From a virus (lineage: Duplodnaviria > Caudoviricetes), in IMG/VR virus record IMGVR_UViG_3300036760_000139, positions 1,685 through 65,684 of that record: a stretch of DNA of 64,000 nt; one strand, written 5' to 3'. Positions 1 through 61,784 of this stretch are shown piece by piece. Numbering within the stretch: position 1 is the first letter of the stretch; the number at the start of each line of letters is the position of its first letter. The position numbers were made by a program, and so were the translations under genes. Under the pieces are notes generated by a model. It did not search any database. It was given only the letters and a program-made list of their open reading frames with translations, and was not told where the DNA came from.

Positions 1-366
1 ATCGCCGGAGCCGCCGGCCTCGCAGTCGTAGCCTGGGGTGCGGCCACCGTCAACGGCTGGCGCGTTGAGGCCAAGGCATCCCGACCGATCATCGTCATCC
101 AAGCCGAGAAGATCGTGGACCAGGACCGCCAACTCCGGGGCTACGAGATCACCCACAAGGAATTGCGGGCGGTGGACGCGATCAAGGATAGGGTGATTGC
201 CGAGAGCCGGGAACGGGGCGCCGAACTCGAAAATCGCCTCACCCTGCTCAACCGGAACCTGGCTCAGATCGAGGCGGAGCGGCGCGCCTGGCAGGCGCAG
301 CCGTACCCGGAAGACTGCGAGCAGGTAATGAGAGAACTTGCACGGAGAGGCGGGGCAAAACCATGA
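1..366 (+). CDS. 5'-truncated i-spanin-like (Rz-like) membrane/coiled-coil protein
   Basis: Frame is open from position 1 with a hydrophobic stretch (IAGAAGLAVVAWG) followed by coiled coil; its stop overlaps the start of a lipoprotein gene (ATGA). Confidence 0.5.
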   Translation: MAGAAGLAVVAWGAATVNGWRVEAKASRPIIVIQAEKIVDQDRQLRGYEITHKELRAVDAIKDRVIAESRERGAELENRLTLLNRNLAQIEAERRAWQAQPYPEDCEQVMRELARRGGAKP

Positions 367-656
367 AGTTAGCACTGACCGGCCTTGTTATATTGTTGCT
401 AACATTCGGCTGCGCGTCCACCAGGCCCTGTCCGCCTTGCCCGCCGGCGGAGATCGTCACGGTGCAAGTCCCGGGTCCCGTCGTGCCGTGTCCGGCACCC
501 CCGACGATCACCCCGCCGCAACTCTGGCTCCTGAACCTGAGTGCCAGCGGCGCCACGATTCAGGAGATTGCAACCGCCCTTGAACACGACCGGCAGGAAC
601 TCGCCCGCGTCCTGGCAGAGTACGAGGCGGCACTGGCCGTCTATCGGAACCCCTGA
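363..656 (+). CDS. Proline-rich lipoprotein, o-spanin-like (Rz1-like)
   Basis: Signal peptide ending in a lipobox-like LTFGC, then a Pro-rich segment PCPPCPP...PCPAPP. Confidence 0.6.
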   Translation: MKLALTGLVILLLTFGCASTRPCPPCPPAEIVTVQVPGPVVPCPAPPTITPPQLWLLNLSASGATIQEIATALEHDRQELARVLAEYEAALAVYRNP

Positions 657-782
657 CGTGAAGTACGACGACGACGACCCCGAGAACCCACTTGACGATC
701 AGCAGTGGTTCGGCACGATTGCCGAATGGATAAAAAGGTCGGCACTTGTGGTGATCTGTGTACCTTGCTATCCTCGCTGCGC

Positions 783-860
783 GGGGCTGTAGCTCAGCCT
801 GGATAGAGCGCCAGTTTCCTAAACTGGATGTCGCCGGTTCGATTCCGGTCAGCCCCTCCA
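783..860 (+). tRNA. tRNA-Arg (anticodon CCT)
   Basis: Acceptor GGGGCTG/CAGCCCC, D arm GCTC/GAGC, anticodon arm CCAGT-TTCCTAA-ACTGG, T loop TTCGATT, encoded CCA. Confidence 0.95.
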
Positions 861-1051
861 CGGCCAATTGAGAAACGCGGTCTCACTGAGACGAGACGCA
901 GAGGACGTGCCGGTTTGACGCCGGTCCGAATGTCGCGCCCCGTCGTACCGTGTTGTGCTGCGTGGTGCAAGACGTACACCGAGAACGCAGGTGGCACCGC
1001 GCTAATCAAGTGGCTTAAGAAGTTGCGCGAACAAATAAAGGATAGACCCGG

Positions 1052-1068
1052 GCGGTTTCCTAAGCCGT
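1052..1068 (+). other. Candidate attP core: isolated tRNA-Arg(CCT) anticodon stem-loop
   Basis: GCGGT-TTCCTAA-GCCGT has the same 7-nt loop as the tRNA and lies in the non-coding gap just beyond the integrase 3' end. Confidence 0.55.
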
Positions 1069-1149
1069 GTATCGTTCGGCGCGGAACCTGCGTCCTCCGA
1101 GTCAATTGCGTGTTTCTCAACTGGTCCCGCATCCAACTTGACGCCGGCC

Positions 1150-2238
1150 TCAAAATTGCCCTCGCCCCGTGGAGGCCCCTGGAAGGCTCCAGGACAGGCG
1201 ATCGGTTGTCGCCCGCTCCCCGGTGTCACCCCAGGCCCGATGTCCAGCCAGCGCCCCGAGCAGTACGCGCTCGACCAACTGCGCCATCGGTCTCCTGACC
1301 GGCTCGACGGCCTGCGCCCGGATGTACCCGGGAGTCGCAGTGCCGGATGTCCGATGTCCAAGGGCGTCGGCAACCTGGTCTTGCGTGAATCCCCCGTACC
1401 TCACCGCCCACGTCGAGAACGTCGCGCGCCCGAGTCCGGGTCCGCTCCAGGTCCGCGTTCCGGCGCGCGCCGAGGCACGGACCAGCGCCGACCGGACAGC
1501 CGCCTCGGTGGCCGCCACCAACGACCCCGACAGTGGGAGCAGGGCAGCGAGGGTGTCCACGACCGGGACGACATGCTCATCGTTGGTCTTGCGCTCCCGC
1601 AGGAGCAGTACCTTGTCGCGCAGCGAGAGGTCGCGGGTGTGGGCGCGCATCGCCTCTGAGGCTCGCATTCCGGTGAACAGGCAGAGACCGACCGCTACCC
1701 GTGCGGGGCCTCGCAACTCGTGCCAGAGACGCGCCATCTCCTCGGGTTCTGGCACCTGCCGGTGGCGCTCCACGACGCGCAGCCTCGGCATTCGCCACCC
1801 CGGTACGATCTCGCATTCGAGCGCCTCACCAGCGCGCACCGTCATGCGGTAGAGCAACGCGAGTTCGGCGCGCAGCGTCCGGTTGCCCACGGGACAAGTA
1901 CCCTGGCGGCGGTGTAGGACGTACCCCTGGATGTCGGTGCCAGTAAGTCGGTTGAGGATGGCCACCCCCAAAAAGTGTTCCTCAAGCCGGGCGTACTTGA
2001 CCTTGTAGTAACGGAGGGTGGTCTCAGGGCTCCCGGCGTCGCGCAGTCCGGTCTTGTAGAGGTTCCACGCTTCTTGTAGCGTCACGATGCGGGGCAACGG
2101 GGCAAGTCCCGCCGTCCTCCTGTCCATGTTCCGTTCCCACTCCTCGGCATCCGGCTTCCGCCGGAAACTCGCCCGATACTCCCTCTTGTTGATCTGTCTC
2201 CTGCACCGATACACCCCGCGCTCCACGTCCCACCTCAT
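1150..2238 (-). CDS. int: Tyrosine recombinase / phage integrase
   Basis: Arm-binding-like N-terminus; TGMRASE (R), RERKT (K), GLGR at the HxxR position, LGH, TPGY (Y). Start may lie upstream (to 2319). Confidence 0.9.
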   Translation of the reverse strand: MRWDVERGVYRCRRQINKREYRASFRRKPDAEEWERNMDRRTAGLAPLPRIVTLQEAWNLYKTGLRDAGSPETTLRYYKVKYARLEEHFLGVAILNRLTGTDIQGYVLHRRQGTCPVGNRTLRAELALLYRMTVRAGEALECEIVPGWRMPRLRVVERHRQVPEPEEMARLWHELRGPARVAVGLCLFTGMRASEAMRAHTRDLSLRDKVLLLRERKTNDEHVVPVVDTLAALLPLSGSLVAATEAAVRSALVRASARAGTRTWSGPGLGRATFSTWAVRYGGFTQDQVADALGHRTSGTATPGYIRAQAVEPVRRPMAQLVERVLLGALAGHRAWGDTGERATTDRLSWSLPGASTGRGQF

Positions 2239-2353: not shown

Positions 2354-3040
2354 CTACTTCGTGTTGATCTCCATTTTGACCACCTGCCCGAGTACAGCCA
2401 GGTTGTCAGCGTCCTTGTCGATCACAACGTCGGGGTATGGGGCCCGGTTCATGGACTGGAGAATGACGTGTCGGCGCTCAAGTACGACGTTGCGCACCAT
2501 CCCCGCCTTGTCGAGGGTTAGGGCATAGGTGCGCCTGCTTTTGAGGGCCGTCGCCTTGGTGTCAACCAGGAACCGGGTACGCCCGGCAATCCCCGTACAC
2601 TCCATTGAGTCGTCGTTGGACACGACCACGACCATCCCATCCCCACCTCGCGGCAGGGCGAAGCGGGGGGCCGCCTCGGGGCCGAACTTTGCTGCTTTGG
2701 GGTCTTCCCACCCCTTGACCGGCACGCCAAGAAAGGCTGGCATCATGATCGTGTCCCCTGCCGTGTAGTTTACGTCTTTCACCGAGATCGTGGCAAAGTC
2801 CGCCAGCTGGACTCCCGGGCCGAGCCAGAACGCGACCCTCTGCTGATAGGGGTCTTTCCCCGGAATGTCGAGTGCCTTGAAAATCGCCCCTTGCGTCTCG
2901 TCCGTGGGTGATGCCTCGCCCCTCTCCCAGGCTCCCACTGCGTTCCCTCCACTGTGCTTGAGCCGCAACCCAAGGTCGCGCTGACTCATCTTCCGGTAGC
3001 CTCGCCACTCTTCAAGTCGGTGTGCAAATGGTTCGGACAT
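2354..3040 (-). CDS. CI-like repressor (XRE HTH plus S24-like C-terminal domain)
   Basis: MSQRDLG...AVGAWERGEASP HTH; DDSM and LQSMN...YP S24-like motifs; divergent from the Cro/Xis-like gene. Confidence 0.85.
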   Translation of the reverse strand: MSEPFAHRLEEWRGYRKMSQRDLGLRLKHSGGNAVGAWERGEASPTDETQGAIFKALDIPGKDPYQQRVAFWLGPGVQLADFATISVKDVNYTAGDTIMMPAFLGVPVKGWEDPKAAKFGPEAAPRFALPRGGDGMVVVVSNDDSMECTGIAGRTRFLVDTKATALKSRRTYALTLDKAGMVRNVVLERRHVILQSMNRAPYPDVVIDKDADNLAVLGQVVKMEINTK

Positions 3041-3120
3041 GGCCCCCCCCTTTCGCCTGGTCAGTGTATCACAAGCCATTGTTGGCACACGGGTTATTCC
3101 TCTTTCCTGGTCCTACATCA

Positions 3121-3176
3121 CAATGCACACCCAAGGGGGGTTGACAAGTGTTCATTGGGGCACTATATTGAGGGTG
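3121..3176 (+). promoter_or_regulatory. Sigma70 promoter (PR-like) with a flanking inverted repeat; likely leaderless
   Basis: TTGACA (3141-3146), 17 bp, TATATT (3164-3169), GTG at 3176; CAATGCACAC...GTGTTCATTG inverted repeat straddles the -35. Confidence 0.8.
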
Positions 3177-3577
3177 TGAGCACTTCTCCTGAGTCCGCGG
3201 CACCCGAAGGTCGGCGCCGGATTATCGCCGAGGTCGATGCCGGAGTCGCCCGTAGCCTCAGAGTGTTTGCGGCCGAGCACGACACCACGATTAGCGATGT
3301 CCTGCGCGACCTGCTCAAGAACTGGCTCCATTTCAACTTCCCGTCTGTCTTACCCACAATATCGGTCCCTGATCCACCCATTGTCAAGGGCCCTTCCCAC
3401 CTACTGTGCCTGAAAGAGGTGGCCAACTACTTCCAGGTGTCACAAGAAACAGTGCGCCGGTGGGTACGTGATCGTCTGATGGTGGCGATCCGCGGTGGTC
3501 GGCGCGGCGGGTACCTGTTTGACCCTGCGGACATCCTCAAATTCCGTAGCAAGCGTACCACCGGGGGGCGCCCGTGA
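3176..3577 (+). CDS. Ribbon-helix-helix plus excisionase-type HTH fusion (Cro/Xis-like)
   Basis: N-terminal RRIIAEVD...LRVFAAEHDTTISDVLRDLL (RHH-like); C-terminal LKEVANYFQVSQETVRRWVR...YLFD (MerR/Xis-type HTH). Confidence 0.75.
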   Translation: MSTSPESAAPEGRRRIIAEVDAGVARSLRVFAAEHDTTISDVLRDLLKNWLHFNFPSVLPTISVPDPPIVKGPSHLLCLKEVANYFQVSQETVRRWVRDRLMVAIRGGRRGGYLFDPADILKFRSKRTTGGRP

Positions 3578-13307: not shown

Positions 13308-13531
13308 GGTGCCCGGAATGCGGTGCCGACCTGGACCGAGGCGCGGAGGGCACCAAGGATGACAGGCGAAACGCCTATCTGCGGACCCAGGACTGCGAGA
13401 AGTGTGGGTCAAGGCGGGTGTCAGTTGACCATCTGTTTCCAGAGGATCGCCAGGCCGAAGAGTTGCATTACCTGTACGCCCTGCGGTACGCCAGGCGTGC
13501 AAAGAAGGTCCGTTCCACCCAACACACGTAA
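13304..13531 (+). CDS. Zinc-ribbon protein, Ogr/Delta- or NrdR-N-like; candidate transcription regulator
   Basis: MRCPECG...T...R..CEKCGSR; 75 aa; basic C-terminus. Confidence 0.6.
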   Translation: MRCPECGADLDRGAEGTKDDRRNAYLRTQDCEKCGSRRVSVDHLFPEDRQAEELHYLYALRYARRAKKVRSTQHT

Positions 13532-13581
13532 TCTAGTGTGACACCCTTGACATGCGGCGGCACCTGCGCCAGATTGTCAGA
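13523..13581 (+). promoter_or_regulatory. Palindrome-linked promoter (CACAC-N8-GTGTG, TTGACA-17-CAGATT)
   Basis: 29 bp identical to 61732-61760; GTG start 6 nt after the -10 implies a leaderless mRNA. Confidence 0.75.
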
Positions 13582-36934: not shown

Positions 36935-37882
36935 ATGCAGATATACCGTGCCTTCCTTGGGAATGTCCCGGGCGGCCCGTATACCAAGTATTTGTATCCA
37001 ACCGGGTACGCGGACCCTGATGCGTTCGGCGCCCCGGTCGTCACTCGCGGGCACGTGGACCTGGCCCCGACCGGGTACGTGGACCCGGATGCCTTTGGCA
37101 GTCCGGCCGTCACCGCCCATGCGCACCTAGCCCCGACGGGATACACGGACCCGGATCTTTTCGGCGCCGTGAATGTGGGGCGGGGCATCCGCCCGACAGG
37201 GTACGCGGATGCCGATGCGTTCGGAGTGCCTGCGGTCACGGCGCACGCGCACCTTGCGCCCACGGGCTACTCGGATGCGGATGGCTTCGGAAGTCCGAGT
37301 CTGGCATGGCACTCGCACCTCGCGCCAGGCGGCTTCGCCGACGCCGACGGATTTGGGTCGCCTGCGGTCACTTGGCACAATGACCTGACGCCCACGGGGT
37401 ACGCGGACCCCGACTTGTTTGGGACGCCCGCGATCTCGGCTCATGCGCACTTGGCACCCACAGGGTACGCAGATCCGGATGGATTTGGGGCACCGGCGGT
37501 CACAGCCCATTACCACCTTGCGCCCACGGGTTACGTTGACGAGGACGCCTTCGGCACCCCGATCGTCACTCCTGGTCCCGTGGGTCTGTTCCCGGCGGGG
37601 TACAACGACCCGGATACCTTTGGTGCCCCGACGGTCACGGTCAAGAACTACCTGATCCAAGGTCACACCAGGGACAACGCCGGAGCGCCACTCGGCGGTT
37701 GTTCCTTCAACCTGTTCTACTCGGATACCGACATTCTGGCCGACAGTATGGTGTCGGGCGGGGACGGTTGGTACTCGTTCATCGTTGACCCGACCAAAGA
37801 CTACTACGGGGTGGCGTACAAGGACGGCACGCCGCCGGTCGCCGGGACCACGGTGAGAACGCTGAGGGGTATCCGCGAATGA
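36935..37882 (+). CDS. Second rope protein: ten ~22-aa repeats plus carboxypeptidase-regulatory-like domain
   Basis: LAPTGYxDxDxFGxPxV repeated 10 times; G.TRD..GAPLGG...SGGDG.YSF. Confidence 0.8.
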   Translation: MQIYRAFLGNVPGGPYTKYLYPTGYADPDAFGAPVVTRGHVDLAPTGYVDPDAFGSPAVTAHAHLAPTGYTDPDLFGAVNVGRGIRPTGYADADAFGVPAVTAHAHLAPTGYSDADGFGSPSLAWHSHLAPGGFADADGFGSPAVTWHNDLTPTGYADPDLFGTPAISAHAHLAPTGYADPDGFGAPAVTAHYHLAPTGYVDEDAFGTPIVTPGPVGLFPAGYNDPDTFGAPTVTVKNYLIQGHTRDNAGAPLGGCSFNLFYSDTDILADSMVSGGDGWYSFIVDPTKDYYGVAYKDGTPPVAGTTVRTLRGIRE

Positions 37883-51465: not shown

Positions 51466-52380
51466 ATGCCCAACTTCACACTCCAAGACTTCCTCAAGGT
51501 GCTCATTCCCGTCATTGCTGGTGGGGCCTCTGCCTACTCAGCTCCGGCCGCCCGCGCGATTCACGGTGCCAGCGGATCACTCATGGCTCTCCAGGAGGAC
51601 AAACGGCGCGAGAAGGAACTCGAACAGGAGATGGCGCTGCGTGCGTCCGAAGGCGAACGCAGGGGGCGCACTCTCGGCCTCCAGGAGCAAGAAGCGAAGG
51701 GTGTACTTGAAGACAGGGCGAGCAAGCGGAAGGGCCAGCAGGGCATGTTTGACGCACTTGGGGCGGCCCTCGCCCAGCTCACTGGCGAGGCGCAGGCCCC
51801 GGGAGCATTCGGTGGTGGTGGGCCGTTGTCGCCCGAGACCATCGACCGGCAGACCGCAGCGCGTGAAGTGGCGCCGGACATCCCACTCATCCAGTCGATC
51901 ATGGCCAAGGCCGGTCCAGAGGGGGCTGCGGCGGCCCTAGCACAACTCGGCGAGGCGCAGACTGCGGCCCGTGGCCGGGGCGAGACCCGGGGGAAGGAAG
52001 AGCGCGCGGCCGGACGCGAGGGCGCGCAGTTCGAGAAGACCCTCGGTGTGCGCAAACAGGAAGCTGGGAGTCAGGCGGCCTACTGGAAGGAGATGGGTGC
52101 GGCCCGCACAGAAGAGGCAGAGACGCACAAGAAGGCACAGGCAGCGACGGAGAAAGCAAAGGGCGAACCTGACATCGATGCCCTGTCCAAGGTCAACAAG
52201 CGAATCGCCGAACTAACTGAGAAGGGGGCCTTGCCTGGGGCTGGAGGTCTGACCCCCGGAGAGATGGCCGAACTCAAGCTCCTCCAGTTGAAAGCGGCCA
52301 GACTCGGCGGTCTCAACACCCCCGCCGGATACTTGGCATACCTCGGCCTTGGCCCTGGACCGCAGGCTGGAAGACCCTAA
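51466..52380 (+). CDS. Ejection protein (coiled coil)
   Basis: Ala/Glu-rich; position in the operon. Confidence 0.6.
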   Translation: MPNFTLQDFLKVLIPVIAGGASAYSAPAARAIHGASGSLMALQEDKRREKELEQEMALRASEGERRGRTLGLQEQEAKGVLEDRASKRKGQQGMFDALGAALAQLTGEAQAPGAFGGGGPLSPETIDRQTAAREVAPDIPLIQSIMAKAGPEGAAAALAQLGEAQTAARGRGETRGKEERAAGREGAQFEKTLGVRKQEAGSQAAYWKEMGAARTEEAETHKKAQAATEKAKGEPDIDALSKVNKRIAELTEKGALPGAGGLTPGEMAELKLLQLKAARLGGLNTPAGYLAYLGLGPGPQAGRP

Positions 52381-55300
52381 TGCCCCGTTTTCTCGGAGAA
52401 CTTCCGACCTGGCCCGAGGTCGAGGAGGAGCTGAAAAAGCGCCAGGCTGACCCGGCGACCATCGCCACTGTCCGCACGAAGTATTGGGCTGACTACGCCA
52501 GCACCGAGGAGATCAAGGCGTTACCCCCGATCCATGTGGAGGCGACGCGCTCTCGGTTCTTCCAGCAGCCGGTAACACCGGATGAACCGAGGCTCAGTCT
52601 CATAGAGAAAGCGGCGGCTCTCATCAGTCCGCCGGGTCCGCCCCCTGCGACACCCGTCGCCGCGCTGCCGCCTACGGCCCCGCCACTCGTCGCTGCCCGT
52701 CAACCCATACAGGGGTGGACAGCCGAGCAAATGATGGGCCAACTTGCTGCGGGCCAGGCACCTGCCATCGCACCGCCATCAGAAGTCCCCCCACTCGCTA
52801 CTAGCCATCGTCCCCCGTTGCCGGGTCCCATGAATGTCGCGGAGGCCGTTGTCGCGCCCGGAACCGGGCGAACGATGGCCGAACTCGCCGCACCCCCGGC
52901 GCGCGTCCCCGTGAACCCGGTCAGCGAAGCGGCGACCGTCGCCGAGGATGTTGCGCGGAGTGTTGGAAGCGCCCTCACGTCACTCGCCGCGATTCAACCG
53001 GGCGTCCAGGAGCGGGCGTTTGGCGACCTTCGCCGACTGGTCGGTGCTGGTGCCCCCGCTGCCGAGTACGAGACGGTGAACGTCGAGGGACCGAACGGCA
53101 AGGTGATCTCAGTCCGTCGGCGCAAAGCAGTCATCCGGGGTCCCGAGACCGGGGGCGAGAGAATGCGCGCGACCGCCGAGTCGCTGGAGGCTAACGCCCC
53201 GGTGCCCGAGACCAAGGCCGGGAAGATTGCCGCTGAGACCGGACGGGCAGGCGCCGGGTTCCTCAAGGCGGCCCCGGTGATCGCGCTGGCTTCGGTGCTC
53301 AGCAAGACCCCGGCCGCCGCCTTCGCCCCGGAACTTGCGGGTTTCTTACTCGGATCGCTCGAGGCGTACGGGAGTGGCGCGGGCGCGCGCGAGGTCGGCA
53401 AGACGGGGCTGGGTGGCGCGACGCAGATGGCTTTGTACCGCGCGGGCAGGTGGACCGGCGGCAAGGCAACCGGGGGGTTGATTGCGCAACTTGCGAATCG
53501 CATGCCAGCCGCCACCGCCAAGGCCGCGCCGCTCATTGAGGCTGCGGGGGGCGCACTTGGCGCTGGTGTGACGACCACCGCAGGAGCCGTTGCGGAGGGC
53601 ATGGACTTCGGGCAGTCGATCAAGGAAGTGGGCGTGCCGATGGTCGTGGCGTCTTTCCTCGCTGACATGGCGGGGCTGCCAAACCCCGTCAAGCGCGGTG
53701 CCAAGGTATTGCAACGCATAGGACTGTCGGCGAAAGAGGCGCGTGACGCCTCAGCGACCGTGATAGGTCTCGCCCAGGCGGGCGATGCGGAGGGTGCCGC
53801 CATGACCCTCCAAGACATCCTGGAGTCGGCCGCAAGGCGGAGGCGTGGGGAAGTGAGACCGCCAGAGGGTCCCCCACTCCCCGCAGAGGCCCCCCCACGG
53901 CCCCCCACGGCCCCCCCACAGGCCCCCCAGCAGCCCCCCACGCCACCACAGGAGGTAGTCAATGCCAGCGCAATACGAACACATCAGGGACAGCGAGTAC
54001 CGGAGGCTGCGCAAGAAGGGCCTCAAGCACAAGGCGGCGCTCAAGAAGGCCAAGGAGATCGCGGCGCGCACCTGGAACAAGCGCCACCCCGAGGACCCGA
54101 ACCCGTGGTCGAGGGAGGCAAAGGACCTGTTCAAGAAGTAGCCAAACAACCGTGGGAGATGAGCCGGGACGAGTGGAACGCGGCAACCCGCTTCTACCGT
54201 TCTGGAAAGACAAAGAACGCACAGTTGCCAACCGGGCAGCGCGTGATCTTGACGAACGAATCGACGGCCGGGAACTTCCTTAAGCAAAGCGGGCCGTTCC
54301 TCGAAACCCTCAGAAGGCAGACGGTTGAGGCCGCCCTTCGTCAAGGCAAGCCCGTCCCGTCCGAAGTCCTCACTGAATTGGGTCTCGCCCCCGCCGTAGA
54401 AAAGGTCGGCACTTCCGCAGAAGTGCCGATAGTTTCACCCGTCAAGACAACTGCCGCTACCGAGCAACCGCCCGAGCACGTTGTCCGCGCGCTCCAGAAG
54501 CCCTGGCGGGTGGTATCCGATTCCGTCATCACCAAAACCAAGGAGCAGGCCAAGGAGACCCTACGCGAGGCCATCGCCAACGGCACCGTGACCCGCGACA
54601 CTCCCGTTCGGCTGACCGACACCAGGGAACTGCACAATCTTGCCACGTCCGGCGAACTCGCCGAGGAGAAGTCGGCGCAGATCGTTGTCGGGGAAAACGG
54701 CGAGGTACTACCCATCATGGGCTACGGCCACGGGATCTCGGCTGCCATCATCCTCCCCGAGGGTTACAGCCGCAAGGCTGCGGGTCTCGAACACGCGCAA
54801 CCCAACGAAGTCAAGATCGACCCGAAGGCTCCCGCCGGGGAGATGCAGTTCATTGTGGCCGGTTACAAGCGGCTTTTGACCTACGCCGAGCTCGCGGAGT
54901 TGATCGAGACGGGCAAGCTGGCTGCCCTGGAGCAGGCGGCGGCCTTGCATGGCGAGAAGCCGGAGATTATACTCAAGGGCGGAGAGATACTTCCAGGTGA
55001 ACCAGCCGCCGTCCCCGGACCCGAAGTTGGCACCCCGAAGGCAGCAGGGAGAGAGCCTGGCGGACTACATCCGACGGCTGGAGAGGTTGGGATTCAAGGT
55101 GGCGGGCCTGCGGTGGGTGCCGAAGGAACCATCACCCCCGGCGCCGCTCCCGCGCCTCCTCCTGTTCCGCAGGCCGTCGCAGAAGTAGCACCCGCCGTAC
55201 AGTCCTACACCATCGAACCAGCCAGTTACGCGAAGAACGCCATCATCGTCCGCATCCAGGGCGGTGCGGAAGGCTTCAAGGGTCCGCTGCACGACGCCAT

Positions 55301-58300
55301 CGAGACCCTCAAGGGCCGATACGTCAAGCGCGAGCGCGGCTACATCCTCCCCAAGAGCAAGGAGGCAAAGGTTCGCGCCGCACTGGACGCGGCACTTACA
55401 CCCCCGCCCCCTGCGGCAGCAGCCATCACCCCGGCAGAGGTGCCCGTCAAGCAACCGTGGGAGATGACGCGGGAAGAATGGTTGCGCGAGGTCAATGCGG
55501 CAAAGATTAACTTCACCGGCACTGGCGGTGAGGGGGAATATGGCATGGGCCGGGTTACAAAGGAAGGAAACTTCAACACCGGGGTGGATCGGTTGCGGTT
55601 TCTACGCGACAATTTGCCGGACCATCACGATGTTGAGGGCTTGCAGTATCCAGCGGATCATCAGGAGGTTGTTGCTAAGGCCCTTTCCGAAGGAAAACCT
55701 GTCCCCCCCGAAGTCCTAACCGAGTACCCTGACCTTAAGAATGTTAACAAGAATGTAACAAAACCCGAAATTGCTAACATTCTTCCACCCGCAGTTTCAC
55801 CCATAGTCGAAAAGACAGGCGAGCAAATTCCACCCCCGAAAGTTCCTGCCGTCGAATCCGAGGCCGTCACCGCCGCCATCGCCTCCTACCAGCGCAAGAC
55901 CCCGACTGACGTGTCGGGGGTTCGCGCGCGCCGGGACAAGCTAGAGATTCGGCAGGAAGAGATCAACCGCCCGCTGGAAACGCTCAAGAAGGACTACGAG
56001 GCGCGACGGAGGGGGAGCAAGACCCGGGAGGCGGCACAGAAGCGGTACACGACTGCGGTGACCGCCGCCGACGAGGAGATGCGCGGCATCGGCATGGAGC
56101 TGGGCAGCCTTCGCAAACAAAGTTACGATGCCAGTCTCGAAAACGCGCTTCTCGCCGACCCACAGCGCGAACTCAATGTTGACGACGCAGAGTTGTCGAG
56201 ACTCGGCGCGGCGATGAGACTACTGCCAAAGGGCGCCGCAGACGCGGCCCGGCGCCTTGCAACCGAGAGGCTCCGGGTCGTAGCCGAGAAGGAGTCGGCG
56301 GGCAAGTCCACTCCCGAGGAGATCGAACAGGCTACCGAGGATGGCGTGAGGTCTCTGGAATCGTTGCCCCTCATGTCGGCGGATCAGCACCGAGGGGCCA
56401 TCATCAACAGTCTTGTCGGAGACCGTCGCGAGCGGATCAAGGAAGCGACGAAGGACGACCCTGACCTCGAGGCCGAGGGCCACGGCTATGGCGGCAGGAA
56501 GTGGCAGCAGGATCTCAAGGCCGCTGGCAGCATGAAGGACCTGGACGGAACCGAACTGGAGATCGCGGATGCCCGCCCGCGCGGGGCCGCGATCCTGGTC
56601 AAACAAGAAGCCGACCGCAAGGCCACCGACCTCGCTGAGCAGAAGCGCGTGGAGAACCTGCGCCGTCCGCTGCCCGAGGGGGTCCGGGAGTTCTCCTACA
56701 AGCTCACGAAAGCCGAGCATCAGGCGCTCGACGAAGCGGATCTTGGGGGGGAGCATGCGGCGGTTGTTTTGTATGGAACGAGGGGACACGCACAGCACGA
56801 GAAGGCGGTAGCCCGCCTCCGTTCTCGCGGACTCATCGCCCCCGACTCGCCGTTCTTGACTCCGCGTGGCGAGGATGTCGCCCGCGCCATCCAGCAAGAG
56901 CGCATGGGCCTGCCCTACGACCAGCGCCCCGGCATCAACTGGGTGCCGCCCGATCCCGCCGCAATGACTAAGGGATGGGAGGGAGTTGCTGGCAAGGCCG
57001 TCGGTGGACTCTTCGCAGACAAGAACGGCGATCCCTGGATCACCGACGGGTATTTCCTTGTGCGGGCGAAACCTGGAACGAAGGTCCCCGAGGGACCGGC
57101 ACCCGAGATCGGGCCAATCGTCAACGTCACCAAGGCGGACCTCGATCCTGTTAGCGGGTCGGTTGCATGGTATCGCACGCGGGTCCGCGACAACGTCATC
57201 CTGTCCAACGGGTTGATAGTGAATGCCGATCTCCTAGCCGCCGTCCTCGGTAAGGAAGGCGGAGACCTCTACCATCGGAAGACCGACACGGGCCAGCCGC
57301 TCGAGACCAGCACCGGGCTCTACGTCCTGCGCGGAGATCAGGTCCACGGCGTCATCATGCCGATTCGGGTTGACGGCACGCAAGACCTCCCCGAGAACTA
57401 CCGCTGGATGTGGGAGGACGGCAAGATCCACGAGCGCGACCTGACGAAAGCACCTGCGGGCGAAGTCCCGGCTCTGGAGCCGACCGAGGACGGTGGGGTG
57501 CAGGAGTCGCTTCCCTTCGAGGGCGTCGGGACTGAACCCCTTTTGCGGAAAGCCACTCTACCGACCGAACGCATCCCCGTCGCCCCACTCCCCGGGGGCA
57601 CCGAGGGCGAGACCGGCCAGCTCATCCCGACCCTCGCCAAGTCACTTGCCCGCCGGATTCGCGTCGCCAAGATGAAGCGCGGGCGGCTCGGCCAGTACGA
57701 ACCGTCGAGCACCGCGACCAGCATCCGGTATCAAGGCGACCTTGCGACTACCTCACACGAGATCGGCCACGACCTTGACGATGCCTACGGGATCACCCCG
57801 TTGTTCTCGTCGGGTCAGTACGATGCCGAGCTCAAGCCGTTCTGGAATCTCGGGACCAAGATCCCGGCCAGCAAGCCCAATGCCATCGTCCTCCGCCGTC
57901 AGGAGGGGTGGGCCGAGTTCCTGCGCGCGATGATCGGGAATCCCGACGAGACACGCACGCAGGCCCCGAAGCTGGCGAAGGTCTACGACGAGCGACTTCC
58001 GACGCAGGTCCGTACGATTCTCGGCAACTACTCCGACGGGGTGCGTAGGTTTGCTGGATTGTCGCCCGAGGAGATGGTGCGGAGCAACGTCGAGATGGAG
58101 GCCGCCACCCGCACTCAGCGACTCCGTCAGGATCTCGCGGGCACCGGCTATGAGTTCAACACGATGGGGTGGGCCGACAAGCTCGGCTCCAAGATCATCG
58201 ACGACCTCGGACGAGTGACGAAGGGGATCGAGACGGCGAAGGAGTTGCGTGGTATTGACCGTCTCCTGCCACAGAACGACCCCGCCATCCTCATCCGCAA

Positions 58301-60686
58301 CTGGTTCGGATGGACCGAAGAGCGGTTTGTGGATATACTTGCAAATGGCGTGCCAATCTACGATAAGTACCGGGAGCGGGCCACCGGGCCGTTCGCCGAC
58401 ATCTTCGAGTCCCTGGACAACTCGCATGCCGACAAACTCCAGGCGGACTACCGTGACACGGTGGCCCTGTTGCTCGCCGAGCGGGTTGGCGAGAAAGCCG
58501 GGTTCATCGACGCCGAGACTCAAGCCAAGATCGACCAGTGGGATGAGGCGGTCGCCGATGGCAGGATGAAAGTTGAGCGCCGTGATGCGGCGGTGGCCCG
58601 GCTGAAGAAGATCACCGAAGCCCGCAAGGGGCGGCTCGCCGGGTGGGGTCACGGCGTCTACTCGGATACGGAAATTGCAGCATCGGCCATCGAAAACCTC
58701 AAGCGCGACCCGGAACGGTTTGCCAGGCTCCAGAAGACCGCCGACGCCTACCGCAAGTGGGCCAACGCCACGCTCCGGTACAACGTGGACTCCGGCCGCA
58801 TGTCCGAGGAGTCCTTCGCGCAGATCAAGGCGCGGAACCAGCAGTATGCGGCGATGCACCGCGTCGCCTCGGAGATCGACCCCAATTACCAGACCGGGGG
58901 CCGGGCCGGGGGCCGGAAACTCGGGACACCGACGGAGACCGTCCAGAAGTTCACCGGCTCGACCAAGAAACTCGGGAATCCGATTGTCAACCTCATGATG
59001 CAGACGGCGGCCATCCTCCGCGAGGCCGAGCGCAATGCCGGGGTCCGCGCGTTCACCGACATCCTCACCAGCCCGCGCAAGATGGGCGAGGGCACACCGA
59101 TCCCCTTGGAGCAGATTGGGCGACGGGTCAAGGAGGGGACCAAGGACGCGATCACCGTATGGGTCAATGGGAAGCCCCAGGCGTGGCAGTTTGAGGAAGG
59201 GTTGCACGCAGAGTTACAGGCCCTTGGCAAGTTGCCGATGACCCCGGCGGTCCTCCGGGTGCCTGCCAGTATTCTGCGGTGGTCGGTGGTTCACAGTCCT
59301 CCATTCCAAATCCGCAACGCGATCCGCGACGCCCTTGAGAGGTTCCGGGTGTCGGACGTGAATTCATTGCCGTGGGACACGCTGAAGGGCTACACCAAGG
59401 AGCAACTCTCCGACTACCTGCGGGCCGGCGGCGCTACGGGTTGGTACTTCCACGACCGCACTCGCTACGCACTCAAACTCAAGGAGACACTCGACGACCT
59501 GGCCAAGGACGAGACCACGATTCTCGCCTCCTTCCACAGTCTACGGCGCGGAGCCGAGCGTTTCTACCGGGGGTCGGAGCTCATCGGCCGGATGGCCGAG
59601 TACCGCAGGGCATTCGTCTATGGCAAGGAAAAGCTCGGGTACGACGACTACAATGCCTCGCTGTTTGCTGCGAATAAGGCGCGCGGGCTCATGGACTTCA
59701 ACACTGCGGGCTCGTGGATCAGGTGGGTGAATCAGATCATCCCATTCACCAACCCATCGGTTCGTGGTGTCGTCCGCAACCTCCAGGCAATGCAGCAGCA
59801 TCCAGGAAGGTTCCTGGCTGCGTGGGCCGCCTCCATCCTCATCCCCAAGCTCATCGAGTATCTGTGGAACTCGACGGGCGATGACGCCGAGGAGTACCGA
59901 CAACTCCCGGACTATCAGCGGGACCTGTTCTTCAATTTCAAGATCGCGCCGAATCTCTGGCTCCGCATCCCCCTCGGGTTTGAGGTGGCGGTGTGGGGTG
60001 GGTCAGTGACCCGGGCCATCGACTACGCGCGGGGAAACAAGAACGCATTCGACGGGCACATCGGGCAACTGATGAGAGCTACGTTGCCCCTCGATGAGAC
60101 TGCCCTTGCCGGGCCGTTCCGCGGGATCGTACAGATGGCACTCAACTACGACCTGTTCCGCAACCAGCACATCATCCCGGCATGGGAAGAGGGTAAGGAC
60201 GTTCGGTTGCGGGACACCAGCCGCGGCTCGCGCCTTGGTCAGGCGGTCCAGCAGGTTCTCGGTGTGGATGCCCGGAAAGTGGACTTCCTGCTCGTGGAGT
60301 CCCTTGGCGATCTCGGGCGGTACATCCAGGAGGCGTCGAACGTTGGGCGGGCAGAGAAACGTCCGCACACGACCGCCGACATTCTGCGGCAGGTGGGCGC
60401 GGTGTTCGCCACGTCACCCGCTGGCCAGGCCAAGGACGTGCAGGCGATCTTCGACACTGCACAACGGGCCGGCATGGAACAGGACAAGCAGGTGGCGCAC
60501 CTCCGCGGCCTACTGAAGCAAGCCTATGAATCGCCCACGGACAAGGAGCGCGACGCCCTCTTGAAGCGAGTGCGCGAGTACGCGACCAGAATCCGGCCGT
60601 TGATCGAGAGACGGGCTGAGCAGGCCATACAAACCAAGGGACAGAAGATGCAACGCAAGATGTACGGGGCAGAAGCCACCGACTAG
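52380..60686 (+). CDS. Giant polyvalent/internal virion protein (2768 aa) with an LPD38-like C-terminus
   Basis: HEIGH and EGWAEF zincin-like motif; DF...G, PF.N, RIP.GFE C-terminal pattern; two KQPWEM...GKPVP.EVL repeats. Confidence 0.8.
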   Translation: MPRFLGELPTWPEVEEELKKRQADPATIATVRTKYWADYASTEEIKALPPIHVEATRSRFFQQPVTPDEPRLSLIEKAAALISPPGPPPATPVAALPPTAPPLVAARQPIQGWTAEQMMGQLAAGQAPAIAPPSEVPPLATSHRPPLPGPMNVAEAVVAPGTGRTMAELAAPPARVPVNPVSEAATVAEDVARSVGSALTSLAAIQPGVQERAFGDLRRLVGAGAPAAEYETVNVEGPNGKVISVRRRKAVIRGPETGGERMRATAESLEANAPVPETKAGKIAAETGRAGAGFLKAAPVIALASVLSKTPAAAFAPELAGFLLGSLEAYGSGAGAREVGKTGLGGATQMALYRAGRWTGGKATGGLIAQLANRMPAATAKAAPLIEAAGGALGAGVTTTAGAVAEGMDFGQSIKEVGVPMVVASFLADMAGLPNPVKRGAKVLQRIGLSAKEARDASATVIGLAQAGDAEGAAMTLQDILESAARRRRGEVRPPEGPPLPAEAPPRPPTAPPQAPQQPPTPPQEVVNASAIRTHQGQRVPEAAQEGPQAQGGAQEGQGDRGAHLEQAPPRGPEPVVEGGKGPVQEVAKQPWEMSRDEWNAATRFYRSGKTKNAQLPTGQRVILTNESTAGNFLKQSGPFLETLRRQTVEAALRQGKPVPSEVLTELGLAPAVEKVGTSAEVPIVSPVKTTAATEQPPEHVVRALQKPWRVVSDSVITKTKEQAKETLREAIANGTVTRDTPVRLTDTRELHNLATSGELAEEKSAQIVVGENGEVLPIMGYGHGISAAIILPEGYSRKAAGLEHAQPNEVKIDPKAPAGEMQFIVAGYKRLLTYAELAELIETGKLAALEQAAALHGEKPEIILKGGEILPGEPAAVPGPEVGTPKAAGREPGGLHPTAGEVGIQGGGPAVGAEGTITPGAAPAPPPVPQAVAEVAPAVQSYTIEPASYAKNAIIVRIQGGAEGFKGPLHDAIETLKGRYVKRERGYILPKSKEAKVRAALDAALTPPPPAAAAITPAEVPVKQPWEMTREEWLREVNAAKINFTGTGGEGEYGMGRVTKEGNFNTGVDRLRFLRDNLPDHHDVEGLQYPADHQEVVAKALSEGKPVPPEVLTEYPDLKNVNKNVTKPEIANILPPAVSPIVEKTGEQIPPPKVPAVESEAVTAAIASYQRKTPTDVSGVRARRDKLEIRQEEINRPLETLKKDYEARRRGSKTREAAQKRYTTAVTAADEEMRGIGMELGSLRKQSYDASLENALLADPQRELNVDDAELSRLGAAMRLLPKGAADAARRLATERLRVVAEKESAGKSTPEEIEQATEDGVRSLESLPLMSADQHRGAIINSLVGDRRERIKEATKDDPDLEAEGHGYGGRKWQQDLKAAGSMKDLDGTELEIADARPRGAAILVKQEADRKATDLAEQKRVENLRRPLPEGVREFSYKLTKAEHQALDEADLGGEHAAVVLYGTRGHAQHEKAVARLRSRGLIAPDSPFLTPRGEDVARAIQQERMGLPYDQRPGINWVPPDPAAMTKGWEGVAGKAVGGLFADKNGDPWITDGYFLVRAKPGTKVPEGPAPEIGPIVNVTKADLDPVSGSVAWYRTRVRDNVILSNGLIVNADLLAAVLGKEGGDLYHRKTDTGQPLETSTGLYVLRGDQVHGVIMPIRVDGTQDLPENYRWMWEDGKIHERDLTKAPAGEVPALEPTEDGGVQESLPFEGVGTEPLLRKATLPTERIPVAPLPGGTEGETGQLIPTLAKSLARRIRVAKMKRGRLGQYEPSSTATSIRYQGDLATTSHEIGHDLDDAYGITPLFSSGQYDAELKPFWNLGTKIPASKPNAIVLRRQEGWAEFLRAMIGNPDETRTQAPKLAKVYDERLPTQVRTILGNYSDGVRRFAGLSPEEMVRSNVEMEAATRTQRLRQDLAGTGYEFNTMGWADKLGSKIIDDLGRVTKGIETAKELRGIDRLLPQNDPAILIRNWFGWTEERFVDILANGVPIYDKYRERATGPFADIFESLDNSHADKLQADYRDTVALLLAERVGEKAGFIDAETQAKIDQWDEAVADGRMKVERRDAAVARLKKITEARKGRLAGWGHGVYSDTEIAASAIENLKRDPERFARLQKTADAYRKWANATLRYNVDSGRMSEESFAQIKARNQQYAAMHRVASEIDPNYQTGGRAGGRKLGTPTETVQKFTGSTKKLGNPIVNLMMQTAAILREAERNAGVRAFTDILTSPRKMGEGTPIPLEQIGRRVKEGTKDAITVWVNGKPQAWQFEEGLHAELQALGKLPMTPAVLRVPASILRWSVVHSPPFQIRNAIRDALERFRVSDVNSLPWDTLKGYTKEQLSDYLRAGGATGWYFHDRTRYALKLKETLDDLAKDETTILASFHSLRRGAERFYRGSELIGRMAEYRRAFVYGKEKLGYDDYNASLFAANKARGLMDFNTAGSWIRWVNQIIPFTNPSVRGVVRNLQAMQQHPGRFLAAWAASILIPKLIEYLWNSTGDDAEEYRQLPDYQRDLFFNFKIAPNLWLRIPLGFEVAVWGGSVTRAIDYARGNKNAFDGHIGQLMRATLPLDETALAGPFRGIVQMALNYDLFRNQHIIPAWEEGKDVRLRDTSRGSRLGQAVQQVLGVDARKVDFLLVESLGDLGRYIQEASNVGRAEKRPHTTADILRQVGAVFATSPAGQAKDVQAIFDTAQRAGMEQDKQVAHLRGLLKQAYESPTDKERDALLKRVREYATRIRPLIERRAEQAIQTKGQKMQRKMYGAEATD
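53962..54141 (+). CDS. Overprinted 59-aa basic protein (QYEHI...AKEIAART.NK, ChaB-like) nested in the +1 frame
   Basis: SD AGGAGG 6 nt before the ATG; family-like motif; host frame is low-complexity here. Confidence 0.7.
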   Translation: MPAQYEHIRDSEYRRLRKKGLKHKAALKKAKEIAARTWNKRHPEDPNPWSREAKDLFKK

Positions 60687-61731: not shown

Positions 61732-61784
61732 CACACGTAATCTAGTGTGACACCCTTGACGTGTGCCCCTCTCGGCCCCATTGT
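61732..61784 (+). promoter_or_regulatory. Palindrome-linked promoter, second identical copy
   Basis: CACACGTAATCTAGTGTGACACCCTTGAC, then TTGACG-17-CATTGT. Confidence 0.7.

What the first reader, a model, noticed from the sequence alone, without database searches (positions are those of the whole stretch)
783..1068. attP candidate reduced to an anticodon stem-loop, with a complete replacement tRNA alongside
Seen: a second TTCCTAA loop in a different stem (GCGGT/GCCGT, 1052-1068), preceded by a GGATAGA D-loop-like remnant and with no intact T arm or acceptor downstream. It lies between the integrase 3' end and a full tRNA-Arg(CCT). Known: many tyrosine integrases cross over in the 7-nt anticodon loop and restore the tRNA with a 3' half carried in attP. 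Inference: this phage destroys the host tRNA-Arg(CCT) on integration and compensates with its own diverged copy, whose altered stem would avoid self-targeting.
Basis: partly seen in the sequence, partly recalled or inferred. Interest (0 to 1): 0.72.

Follow-up and report, generated by a model that had tools for sequence, protein, structure and literature searches.

The report
Phage attP that splits host tRNA-Arg
An uncultured temperate phage of Acidobacteria appears to insert into the anticodon loop of its host's tRNA-Arg(CCU) gene without rebuilding it and carries its own copy of that tRNA beside the site, which is a new example of the already described "tRNA-dependent lysogeny".

Summary
Window 783-860 is a complete tRNA-Arg(CCT). 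Window 1040-1074 is a decayed 35-nt copy of the middle of a tRNA-Arg(CCT). Its anticodon stem-loop (1052-1068) lies about 85 nt from the 3' end of a tyrosine integrase.

In one MAG of Thermoanaerobaculaceae (L017) the host tRNA-Arg(CCT) gene runs up to the anticodon loop and then continues into sequence homologous to window 1064-1315. The 3' part of that tRNA starts another contig of the same MAG. Sixteen other genomes of the family carry this tRNA unbroken, with stem GCGGT/ACCGC as predicted.

attP and attB share only 12 exact bases (window 1052-1063), so the crossover lies there. Neither junction gives a tRNA by ARAGORN. The phage tRNA has the host's acceptor and D stems, but its anticodon stem has been rewritten by compensatory changes.

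Two claims remain inferred: that the phage tRNA compensates for the loss, and that its rewritten stem avoids self-recombination. No attR and no lysogen of this exact phage was found.

The mechanism is already in print for actinobacteriophages (Guerrero-Bustamante and Hatfull 2024). I file this as a new member of a known kind.

The parts
363..656 (+). Last late gene before the module: a small protein with a lipoprotein-type N-terminus. A spanin-like role is my inference.
   Evidence: ORF and translation. No Pfam family. The same gene precedes the tRNA in L002, L006, L007 and L008.
766..774 (+). TGCTATCCT, an extended -10-like motif that ends 8 nt before the tRNA. Weak candidate promoter.
   Evidence: Identical in the window and L002. 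Host tRNA loci carry TAGCAT-type hexamers at about the same distance. The consensus scan found no sigma-70 site in 600-1300.
783..860 (+). Complete phage-borne tRNA-Arg(CCT), 78 nt, CCA encoded.
   Evidence: ARAGORN. Rfam 66.4 bits. Cloverleaf is the minimum-energy fold. It matches host-type tRNAs at 64 of 78 (L043) and 67 of 78 (L062) positions. Acceptor and D stems are identical to the host's; the anticodon stem is CCAGT/ACTGG.
861..1051 (.). P arm of attP (inferred), with candidate arm-type motifs TTGAGAAAC (868-876) and TTGACGCCGG (915-924).
   Evidence: Repeat search: TTGACGCCGG recurs at 1138, and both copies are kept in L002. TTGAGAAAC recurs inverted at 1112. Stretches of 27 and 36 nt are identical between phages that are 89% alike overall.
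1040..1074 (+). Decayed copy of host tRNA-Arg(CCT) positions 19-51 (D loop to start of T stem).
   Evidence: 30 of 33 matched bases plus a 2-nt insertion; score 34 against a shuffle maximum of 24.
1052..1063 (.). Common core shared exactly by attP and attB (GCGGTTTCCTAA). The crossover lies within it. The anticodon-loop equivalent is 1057-1063.
   Evidence: The attL of L017 carries the host base at tRNA position 26 and the phage base at position 39. The core was located in both partners.
1064..1149 (.). P' arm of attP. It holds relics of the tRNA 3' half (V loop 1069-1073; hairpin GTTC/GAAC 1074-1087) and the motifs GTTTCTCAA (1112-1120) and TTGACGCCGG (1138-1147).
   Evidence: Three-way alignment of window, L002 and the L017 attL. 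Homologous to L017 at 74-80%.
1150..2238 (-). Tyrosine integrase, 362 aa.
   Evidence: PF00589 at E=1.7e-10. 23 homologues, all from metagenomes, 340-378 aa apart from one of 293.
2354..3088 (-). CI/LexA-like repressor (HTH plus S24 peptidase).
   Evidence: PF00717 at 1.2e-08 and PF01381 at 0.002.
2954..3577 (+). ORF with an excisionase-type HTH_17 domain at its C-terminus. Candidate Xis or Cro; the true start is uncertain.
   Evidence: PF12728 at 1.5e-08, residues 153-201.

Best explanation
The 290 nt between the phage tRNA and the integrase (about 861-1149) is the phage attachment site attP.

Its core is a 12-bp stretch (1052-1063). This stretch is identical to the 5' strand of the anticodon stem plus the anticodon loop of the single tRNA-Arg(CCU) gene of Thermoanaerobaculaceae-like Acidobacteria.

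The tyrosine integrase (1150-2238, minus strand) exchanges strands within that core. Beyond the core attP holds only a decayed relic of the tRNA, so integration splits the host gene and rebuilds it at neither junction.

The phage carries a complete tRNA-Arg(CCU) 190 nt to the left of the core, in the same orientation. After integration this copy would sit just upstream of the displaced host 3' half and could decode AGG in the lysogen. This is the arrangement published as tRNA-dependent lysogeny.

Shown here:
- the anatomy of the region;
- a host/phage junction in a relative;
- the short common core;
- the loss of a recognisable tRNA at both junctions.

Inferred:
- that this phage itself integrates there;
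- that its tRNA is expressed and compensates;
- that its rewritten anticodon stem protects it from the integrase.
For: 1. Junction. A scan of genome contigs for the element's arm gave 15 stretches. One, L017 (a 6453-bp contig of a Thermoanaerobaculaceae MAG), reads host tRNA 5' half, then loop, then sequence homologous to window 1064-1315 (74% over 300 columns). ARAGORN finds no tRNA there. Rfam tRNA scores 24.7 bits, below the gathering score of 29.

2. Same locus as in relatives. The host side of L017 is about 90% identical in translation to the upstream flank of the intact tRNA in L043, L040 and L042. Contig G001:C133 starts at tRNA position 40 and continues into the downstream flank seen in those relatives.

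3. attB. 17 of 42 family genomes carry the tRNA 5' half. Of these, 15 are intact 78-nt tRNA-Arg(CCT), 1 is cut by a contig end, and 1 is the junction. The stem 5' strand is GCGGT in 16 of 17. Position 39 is A in all 16 loci without the junction and G only at the junction, as in attP.

4. In-silico recombination at the core gives no tRNA at attL. At attR the only tRNA is the phage's own.

5. The element and its left flank are the best conserved part of the intergenic region between two phages that are 89% alike. The P' arm motifs are shared with L017.

6. Phage tRNA. Both phage variants keep the cloverleaf through compensatory changes. The anticodon stem differs from the host type at 4 positions (window) or 8 positions (L002), whereas two host-type tRNAs that differ at 10 positions have none there.

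7. AGG makes up about 8 per 1000 codons in a crude host ORF sample. The pattern scan finds one tRNA-Arg(CCT) in each of 4 intact family genomes and none in G001.

8. Precedent: PMC10865867 (abstract and sections 5, 6, 10 and 11 read).
Against: - Only one junction was found, and it belongs to a relative, not to this phage.
- In L017, homology to the phage stops after the last 53 integrase codons. The remaining 318 nt match neither the phage nor the 41 other family genomes. The locus may therefore be a remnant or a mosaic.
- attR was never seen: 0 hits in viral contigs for the predicted junction, and no P-arm homologue in 401 class genomes or 42 family genomes.
- All 5 contigs that hold this region are in the attP form: the window, the IMG/VR relative, L006, L007 and L008.
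- The host has a tRNA-Arg(TCT) that could read AGG, so the host gene may not be essential.
- No sigma-70 consensus promoter was found for the phage tRNA.
- Phage AGG use (8.9 per 1000) is about the same as the host's, which does not separate compensation from simple translational use.
Confidence: 0.75

Rival explanations
1. The element is only a fossil. An ancestor integrated into tRNA-Arg(CCT), but this phage no longer uses the site, or no longer integrates. The L017 junction would then be an old scar.
For: The L017 locus keeps only about 275 nt of phage-like DNA. Every contig with the region is in the attP form. No attR was found.
Against: The integrase ORF is intact. A 36-nt block around the core is identical between phages that are 89% alike overall. 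Repeated motifs flank it in both arms. The 12-bp core still matches the host gene exactly.
Confidence: 0.1
2. The complete tRNA at 783-860 is itself the attachment site, in the canonical manner: the crossover falls inside it and the host tRNA is rebuilt.
For: The arrangement, with the tRNA 3' end pointing at the 3' end of int, is the usual one. Three homologous integrases in the host class sit this way beside intact tRNAs. One of them has a 32-nt repeat of the tRNA 3' end 14 kb away.
Against: The one junction found is not in this tRNA. The best full-length match among 401 Acidobacteriota genomes is 86%, and the family tRNAs are 81-82% identical, with differences in both halves. The two phage variants differ from each other in the stem and the loop. 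This reading leaves the second tRNA-like element unexplained.
Confidence: 0.05
3. Integration does occur at the core, but the phage tRNA mainly serves phage translation or escape from host tRNA-cleaving defences. Its stem and loop changes would then reflect that role, not compensation or protection from Int.
For: The phage carries two further tRNAs, Trp and His. The L002 variant has a change in the anticodon loop at position 32. A paper on phage tRNAs that evade anticodon nucleases is cited in PMC10865867; I saw only its title in the reference list. The host has tRNA-Arg(TCT).
Against: The tRNA has exactly the isotype and anticodon of the gene that integration splits, and it lies directly beside attP, as in the published cases. 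Phage AGG use is not raised over the host's. The two roles do not exclude each other.
Confidence: 0.25
4. The L017 junction is an assembly chimera between a host tRNA contig and a free phage genome.
For: It is a MAG contig, and the locus is split over two contigs.
Against: The two partners share only 12 exact bases (16 with one mismatch), which is shorter than the usual assembly word lengths (my inference). The phage part differs by 20-26% from the phages found here, so it is not one of them.
Confidence: 0.03

Closest known systems
tRNA-dependent lysogeny of actinobacteriophages, e.g. Fionnbharth (K4), LeBron (L1), Gaia (X); Guerrero-Bustamante and Hatfull, mBio 2024, PMC10865867 (abstract and sections 5, 6, 10, 11 read)
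   Same: A tyrosine integrase; attB inside a tRNA gene; a common core of only 8-17 bp (12 bp here), so no tRNA is rebuilt; the phage carries a tRNA of the same anticodon; close relatives of the integrase use canonical, restoring sites.
   Different: The host is from another phylum (Acidobacteriota) and the phage is uncultured. The target is tRNA-Arg(CCU), not Lys, Ile2 or Leu, and it may be dispensable because a tRNA-Arg(UCU) exists. The phage tRNA lies directly against attP rather than elsewhere in the genome. It resembles host-type tRNAs in its acceptor and D stems. attP still shows a decayed relic of the whole tRNA 3' half. Requirement of the tRNA for lysogeny is untested here.
Canonical anticodon-loop attP sites that restore the tRNA, e.g. 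Boilgate attP with a 43-bp core (PMC10865867, section 5). The sublocation classes of Williams 2002 are recalled, not read.
   Same: The crossover is at the anticodon stem-loop. The tRNA points at the 3' end of int. Candidate arm-type repeats flank the core.
   Different: The identity block ends after the loop, so the 3' half is not supplied.
Integrated element at tRNA-Lys(TTT) in family genome G034, whose integrase is 54% identical to the window's
   Same: The same integrase family, the same host family, and the same tRNA-to-int geometry.
   Different: A 32-nt direct repeat of the tRNA 3' end lies 14 kb away, and the tRNA is intact. This is the ordinary restoring type.
Lj965 prophage of Lactobacillus johnsonii, and prophage-related sequences of Sinorhizobium meliloti that replace a host tRNA (passages in PMC10865867 section 11, PMC11476347 and PMC12429752)
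   Same: The host tRNA is not rebuilt, and the element brings a cognate tRNA.
   Different: Other hosts and other tRNAs. I read only the passages that mention them, so the details were not compared.

Membership tests
tRNA-dependent lysogeny (PMC10865867) | Phage-encoded tyrosine integrase next to attP | tested here: met
   PF00589 at E=1.7e-10 on the ORF at 1150-2319 minus. Conserved non-coding DNA with repeats lies beside it.
tRNA-dependent lysogeny (PMC10865867) | attB overlaps a host tRNA gene | tested here: met
   Junction in L017 within tRNA-Arg(CCT). The same locus is intact in 15 family genomes, with matching flanks. It was shown for a relative of the phage, not for the phage itself.
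tRNA-dependent lysogeny (PMC10865867) | Short common core, so that no functional tRNA is rebuilt at attL or attR | tested here: met
   12 exact bases. ARAGORN finds no tRNA at the natural attL, at the in-silico attL or at the attR junction. Rfam scores 24.7 bits, below 29. Function was not assayed.
tRNA-dependent lysogeny (PMC10865867) | [quoted passage not shown] | tested here: met
   tRNA-Arg(CCT) at 783-860. It is also present in the relative L002.
tRNA-dependent lysogeny (PMC10865867) | The host tRNA is needed, and the phage tRNA is required for viable lysogens | not testable with these tools
   Partial only. The pattern scan finds one copy in each of 4 intact family genomes and none in G001. 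AGG is about 8 per 1000 codons. A tRNA-Arg(TCT) exists.
Canonical tRNA-restoring attP (anticodon-loop type) | attP carries the tRNA from the crossover to the 3' end, so attL holds a working tRNA | tested here: not met
   Only a decayed relic follows the loop. No tRNA is called at attL.
Whole phage tRNA gene acting as attP | Junctions inside 783-860, and a host tRNA identical to the phage copy over the exchanged part | tested here: not met
   The junction lies in the other element. The best host-type identity is 86% in 401 phylum genomes.

The most novel reading that the evidence does not exclude
This locus may be a caught-in-the-act intermediate in how tRNA-dependent lysogeny evolves.

On this reading the phage first took up a copy of the very tRNA it targets. 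Selection on the restoring 3' half of attP then lapsed, and the half decayed in place; its V loop, a shortened T hairpin and an acceptor-like strand are still visible.

The captured tRNA then had its anticodon stem rewritten by compensatory changes, differently in two sister phages. As a result the integrase no longer recognises it as a second att site 240 bp from the real one.

Integration would then amount to an in-place replacement of the host gene by a phage allele that the integrase cannot attack.
Probability: 0.3. Interest if true: 0.55.

Novelty: new member of a known kind. Interest (0 to 1): 0.42.

Why it matters
- It extends tRNA-dependent lysogeny to an uncultured podovirus-like phage of Acidobacteriota. 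The 2024 paper asked how common the phenomenon is outside actinobacteriophages.
- It assigns a host family to this viral contig.
- The decayed tRNA relic in attP bears on an open point in that paper's discussion: whether uptake of a cognate tRNA preceded the shrinking of the core.
- The rewritten anticodon stem suggests a simple, testable rule for how a phage can keep a copy of its own target next to attP.

Tried and rejected
- Single-protein integrase search in genome contigs: no relative.
- Integrase search in viral contigs, by protein and by a 23-row alignment: only one related contig.
- Three element or P-arm patterns in viral contigs: only that contig, plus two unrelated phage tRNA arrays.
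- The one metagenome scan gave 3 contigs, all in the attP form.
- Logan contigs of 4 sediment runs were laid on 300-1800. One run holds the whole stretch and may be the source. The loose ends listed at 787-849 belong to other organisms' tRNA genes. None of the 20 listed lies at 1040-1075, and 5 more were not shown. Contigs cannot show rare junctions, so this says nothing either way.
- P arm by BLAST in 401 class genomes: only 19-33-nt chance-level hits in 8 genomes. In 42 family genomes, only L017 itself matched.
- Predicted attR junction in viral contigs: 0 hits.
- No cultured relative useful for host inference: portal hits are at 23-26% identity, and the integrase has no hit among 50,697 phage records.
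- Reading the conserved 950-1075 stretch as a protein was rejected, because the differences between the two phages fall in all three codon positions (by eye).
- Supplementary figures of PMC10865867 (arm-type sites) could not be seen.

Full report
**What the window is.** The window is bases 1685-65684 of a 65,684-bp linear IMG/VR virus record estimated 73% complete. It encodes a portal, a major head protein, tail fibre-like proteins and DNA methyltransferases. Its G+C content is about 62%. At its left end lie two small late genes; the second (363-656) has a lipoprotein-type N-terminus. Then follow:
- a tRNA-Arg(CCT) at 783-860;
- 290 nt of non-coding DNA;
- a tyrosine integrase on the minus strand, 1150-2238 (PF00589);
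- an S24/HTH repressor;
- an ORF with an excisionase-type HTH.

This is the usual lysogeny module of a temperate phage.

**The observation.** No second tRNA is called. The 9-mer GTTTCCTAA occurs only at 814 and 1055 in 64 kb; the expectation is 0.17, and 1 of 100 shuffles gave two or more. The arm with its loop is identical over 17 nt to genuine tRNA-Arg(CCT) genes in unrelated phage tRNA arrays. The stretch does not fold better than shuffles as RNA.

**Relatives of the phage.** One IMG/VR contig (L002, L004 and L009 are the same record) has an integrase 86-90% identical. Three metagenome contigs (L006-L008) carry the region. All show the same order: late genes, tRNA, non-coding DNA, integrase.

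The window and L002 are 89% identical across 640-1200. The tRNA differs at 7 of 78 positions. These include two base pairs of the anticodon stem that are fully compensated (CCAGT/ACTGG against CCACA/TGTGG) and loop position 32. The longest identical runs (27 and 36 nt) lie at 988-1014 and 1033-1068, over the tRNA-like element and its left flank. So the tRNA evolves under selection for structure, and the element evolves under selection for sequence.

**The host site.** A scan of one genome per species for the element's arm followed by TTCR at 7-12 nt gave 15 stretches. By ARAGORN and by eye they sort as follows:
- 5 lie inside intact tRNA-Arg(CCT) genes of various phyla;
- 5 are 3' halves of such genes without a 5' half (the ordinary displaced fragments of other elements);
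- 4 are not in a tRNA context;
- 1, L017, is different.

L017 is a 6453-bp contig of a MAG titled Thermoanaerobaculaceae bacterium. It reads a tRNA-Arg(CCT) from its first base through the D arm, the stem strand GCGGT and the loop. It then continues into sequence homologous to window 1064-1315, that is, the flank toward the integrase and the last 53 integrase codons (74% over 300 columns). ARAGORN calls no tRNA there. The Rfam tRNA model scores 24.7 bits, below the gathering score of 29.

**Is it the real chromosomal locus?** In the family of that MAG, 17 of 42 genomes hold the same tRNA 5' half. Of these, 15 are intact 78-nt tRNA-Arg(CCT), one is cut by a contig end, and one is the junction itself.

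The DNA upstream of the L017 half-gene is about 90% identical in translation to the upstream flank of the intact gene in L043, L040 and L042. A second contig of the same MAG (G001:C133) begins at tRNA position 40, runs to the CCA, and continues into the downstream flank seen in those relatives. The gene is therefore split in this MAG exactly as an insertion would split it.

**Where the crossover lies.** The intact genes read GCGGT in 16 of 17 loci and have A at position 39 in all 16 loci without the junction. attP has G at the position before the stem and G after the loop. The L017 junction has the host base (A) before the stem and the phage base (G) after the loop. Exchange therefore took place within the 12 bases GCGGTTTCCTAA, window 1052-1063. 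These are the only exact identity between the partners.

**No tRNA is rebuilt.** Joining the window and a host locus at the core in a script gives no tRNA at attL. At attR the only tRNA is the phage's own. This agrees with the natural attL of L017.

attP is nevertheless clearly derived from the tRNA. Window 1040-1074 aligns to host positions 19-51 with score 34, against a shuffle maximum of 24. Further right, all three phage-type sequences keep three relics at about the right spacing:
- a V-loop-like GTATC;
- a short hairpin (GTTC/GAAC, with differing loops) where the T arm should be;
- an acceptor-like strand.

I read this as a canonical restoring attP that has decayed.

**The phage tRNA.** It shares with the host-type genes the acceptor stem, the D stem, the loop and the length of 78 nt. 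It matches 64 of 78 positions of the family gene (L043) and 67 of 78 of the best gene found in 401 Acidobacteriota genomes (L062). L062 also shares its T stem 5' strand and its U73.

Two host-type genes that differ at 10 positions have no difference in the anticodon arm. The phage copies differ from them there at 4 positions (window) or at 8 plus one loop position (L002). So the copy sitting 240 bp from attP no longer contains the core: 2 of its 12 positions differ in the window and 5 of 12 in L002.

That this protects the tRNA from the integrase is an inference. Escape from tRNA-targeting defences is an alternative.

**Would the host miss the gene?**
- The pattern scan finds one tRNA-Arg(CCT) in each of four intact family genomes and none in the MAG with the junction. 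That MAG is incomplete, so absence is not shown.
- AGG is about 8 per 1000 codons in a crude ORF sample of a family genome and 8.9 per 1000 in the phage.
- A tRNA-Arg(TCT) is present in the MAG.

The loss is therefore likely to be costly but may not be lethal. Necessity of the phage tRNA is untested.

**attP anatomy.** TTGACGCCGG occurs at 915 and 1138, and both copies are kept in L002. TTGAGAAAC occurs at 868 and inverted at 1112. The P' arm motif TTCTCAACTGG is shared by the window, L002 and L017. These are candidate arm-type sites. If so, attP fills the whole interval from just after the tRNA to the integrase stop. This is inference.

**The integrase family.** There are 23 homologues, all from metagenomes. 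In 401 genomes of the host class, 3 have a homologue at E<=1e-20, and each lies beside an intact tRNA that points at its 3' end: Lys-TTT, Leu-CAA and Leu-TAA. The best of them, 54% identical, bounds a 14-kb element with a 32-nt repeat of the tRNA-Lys 3' end. The family is thus ordinarily of the restoring type.

**Weak points.**
- The junction is from a relative.
- Beyond the 53 integrase codons the L017 contig runs 318 nt into DNA that matches neither the phage nor the other 41 family genomes. The insert may be a remnant or a mosaic.
- No attR was found.
- No lysogen of this phage was found.
- Run contigs gave no junction information.

**Comparison with the literature.** Guerrero-Bustamante and Hatfull (mBio 2024, PMC10865867; abstract and sections 5, 6, 10, 11 read) define tRNA-dependent lysogeny by:
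- a tyrosine integrase;
- an attB in a tRNA gene;
- a common core of about 10 bp that does not rebuild the tRNA;
- a phage tRNA of the same isotype that is required for lysogeny.

They list cores of 8-17 bp at tRNA-Lys, Ile2 and Leu genes in actinobacteriophages. They note that close relatives restore the tRNA, and they ask how common this is elsewhere. Passages in two Sinorhizobium papers describe similar replacement by prophage-borne tRNAs. A full-text search for the term found 23 papers, of which 20 were listed. None of the listed titles concerns Acidobacteria or metagenomic phages; I did not read them beyond the listing.

Four of the five defining features are met here, and the fifth cannot be tested. 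I therefore file this as a new member of a known kind. It has three particular points:
- another phylum and another tRNA;
- the tRNA sits directly against attP;
- attP carries a visible relic of the lost 3' half.

Noticed in passing
L060 1-300 (IMG/VR contig of 18,984 bp): At the contig start a tRNA-Arg(CCT) gene runs through the same GCGGT stem and loop, then breaks off after the V loop. About 110 nt further on, a complete tRNA-Arg(CCT) with a different anticodon stem lies on the opposite strand. No PF00589 integrase was found in the 19-kb fragment. This may be a second, independent case of split-and-replace.
   Followed up: partly
L011, L012, L016, L019, L020, L021 (genome-contig hits): Five MAGs or genomes of other phyla hold the 3' half of a tRNA-Arg(CCT), starting at this same stem-loop, without a 5' half. 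L011 and L019 share the same non-tRNA left flank (GGGTTCGG). The anticodon loop of tRNA-Arg(CCT) seems to be a widely used insertion point.
   Followed up: no
G034:C5:66497-80508 (L048, L049): A 14-kb integrated element beside tRNA-Lys(TTT), with an integrase 54% identical to the window's and a 32-nt direct repeat of the tRNA 3' end.
   Followed up: partly
window 679-765: The stretch just upstream of the phage tRNA is prone to indels. L002 lacks 37 nt here, and contigs of two sediment runs join 678 to 766, skipping 87 nt.
   Followed up: no
L006 against window 1-660: In L006 the two late genes before the tRNA have diverged, while the sequence from the end of the second gene through the tRNA and attP into the integrase looks identical to the window by eye. 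This suggests a mosaic joint just left of the module.
   Followed up: no
window 13523-13554 and 61732-61763: A 32-nt repeat (97% identical) containing TTGAC, 48 kb apart. The second copy lies just after tRNA-His. It may be a repeated regulatory site.
   Followed up: no
window 36998-37623 and 52380-60686: Nine copies of a repeat unit spaced about 66 nt apart, inside an ORF, and a single ORF of 2768 aa. Neither was examined.
   Followed up: no
L017 1-318: The DNA that follows the truncated integrase end in the MAG contig matches neither the phage nor any of the 41 other family genomes. Its origin is unknown.
   Followed up: partly
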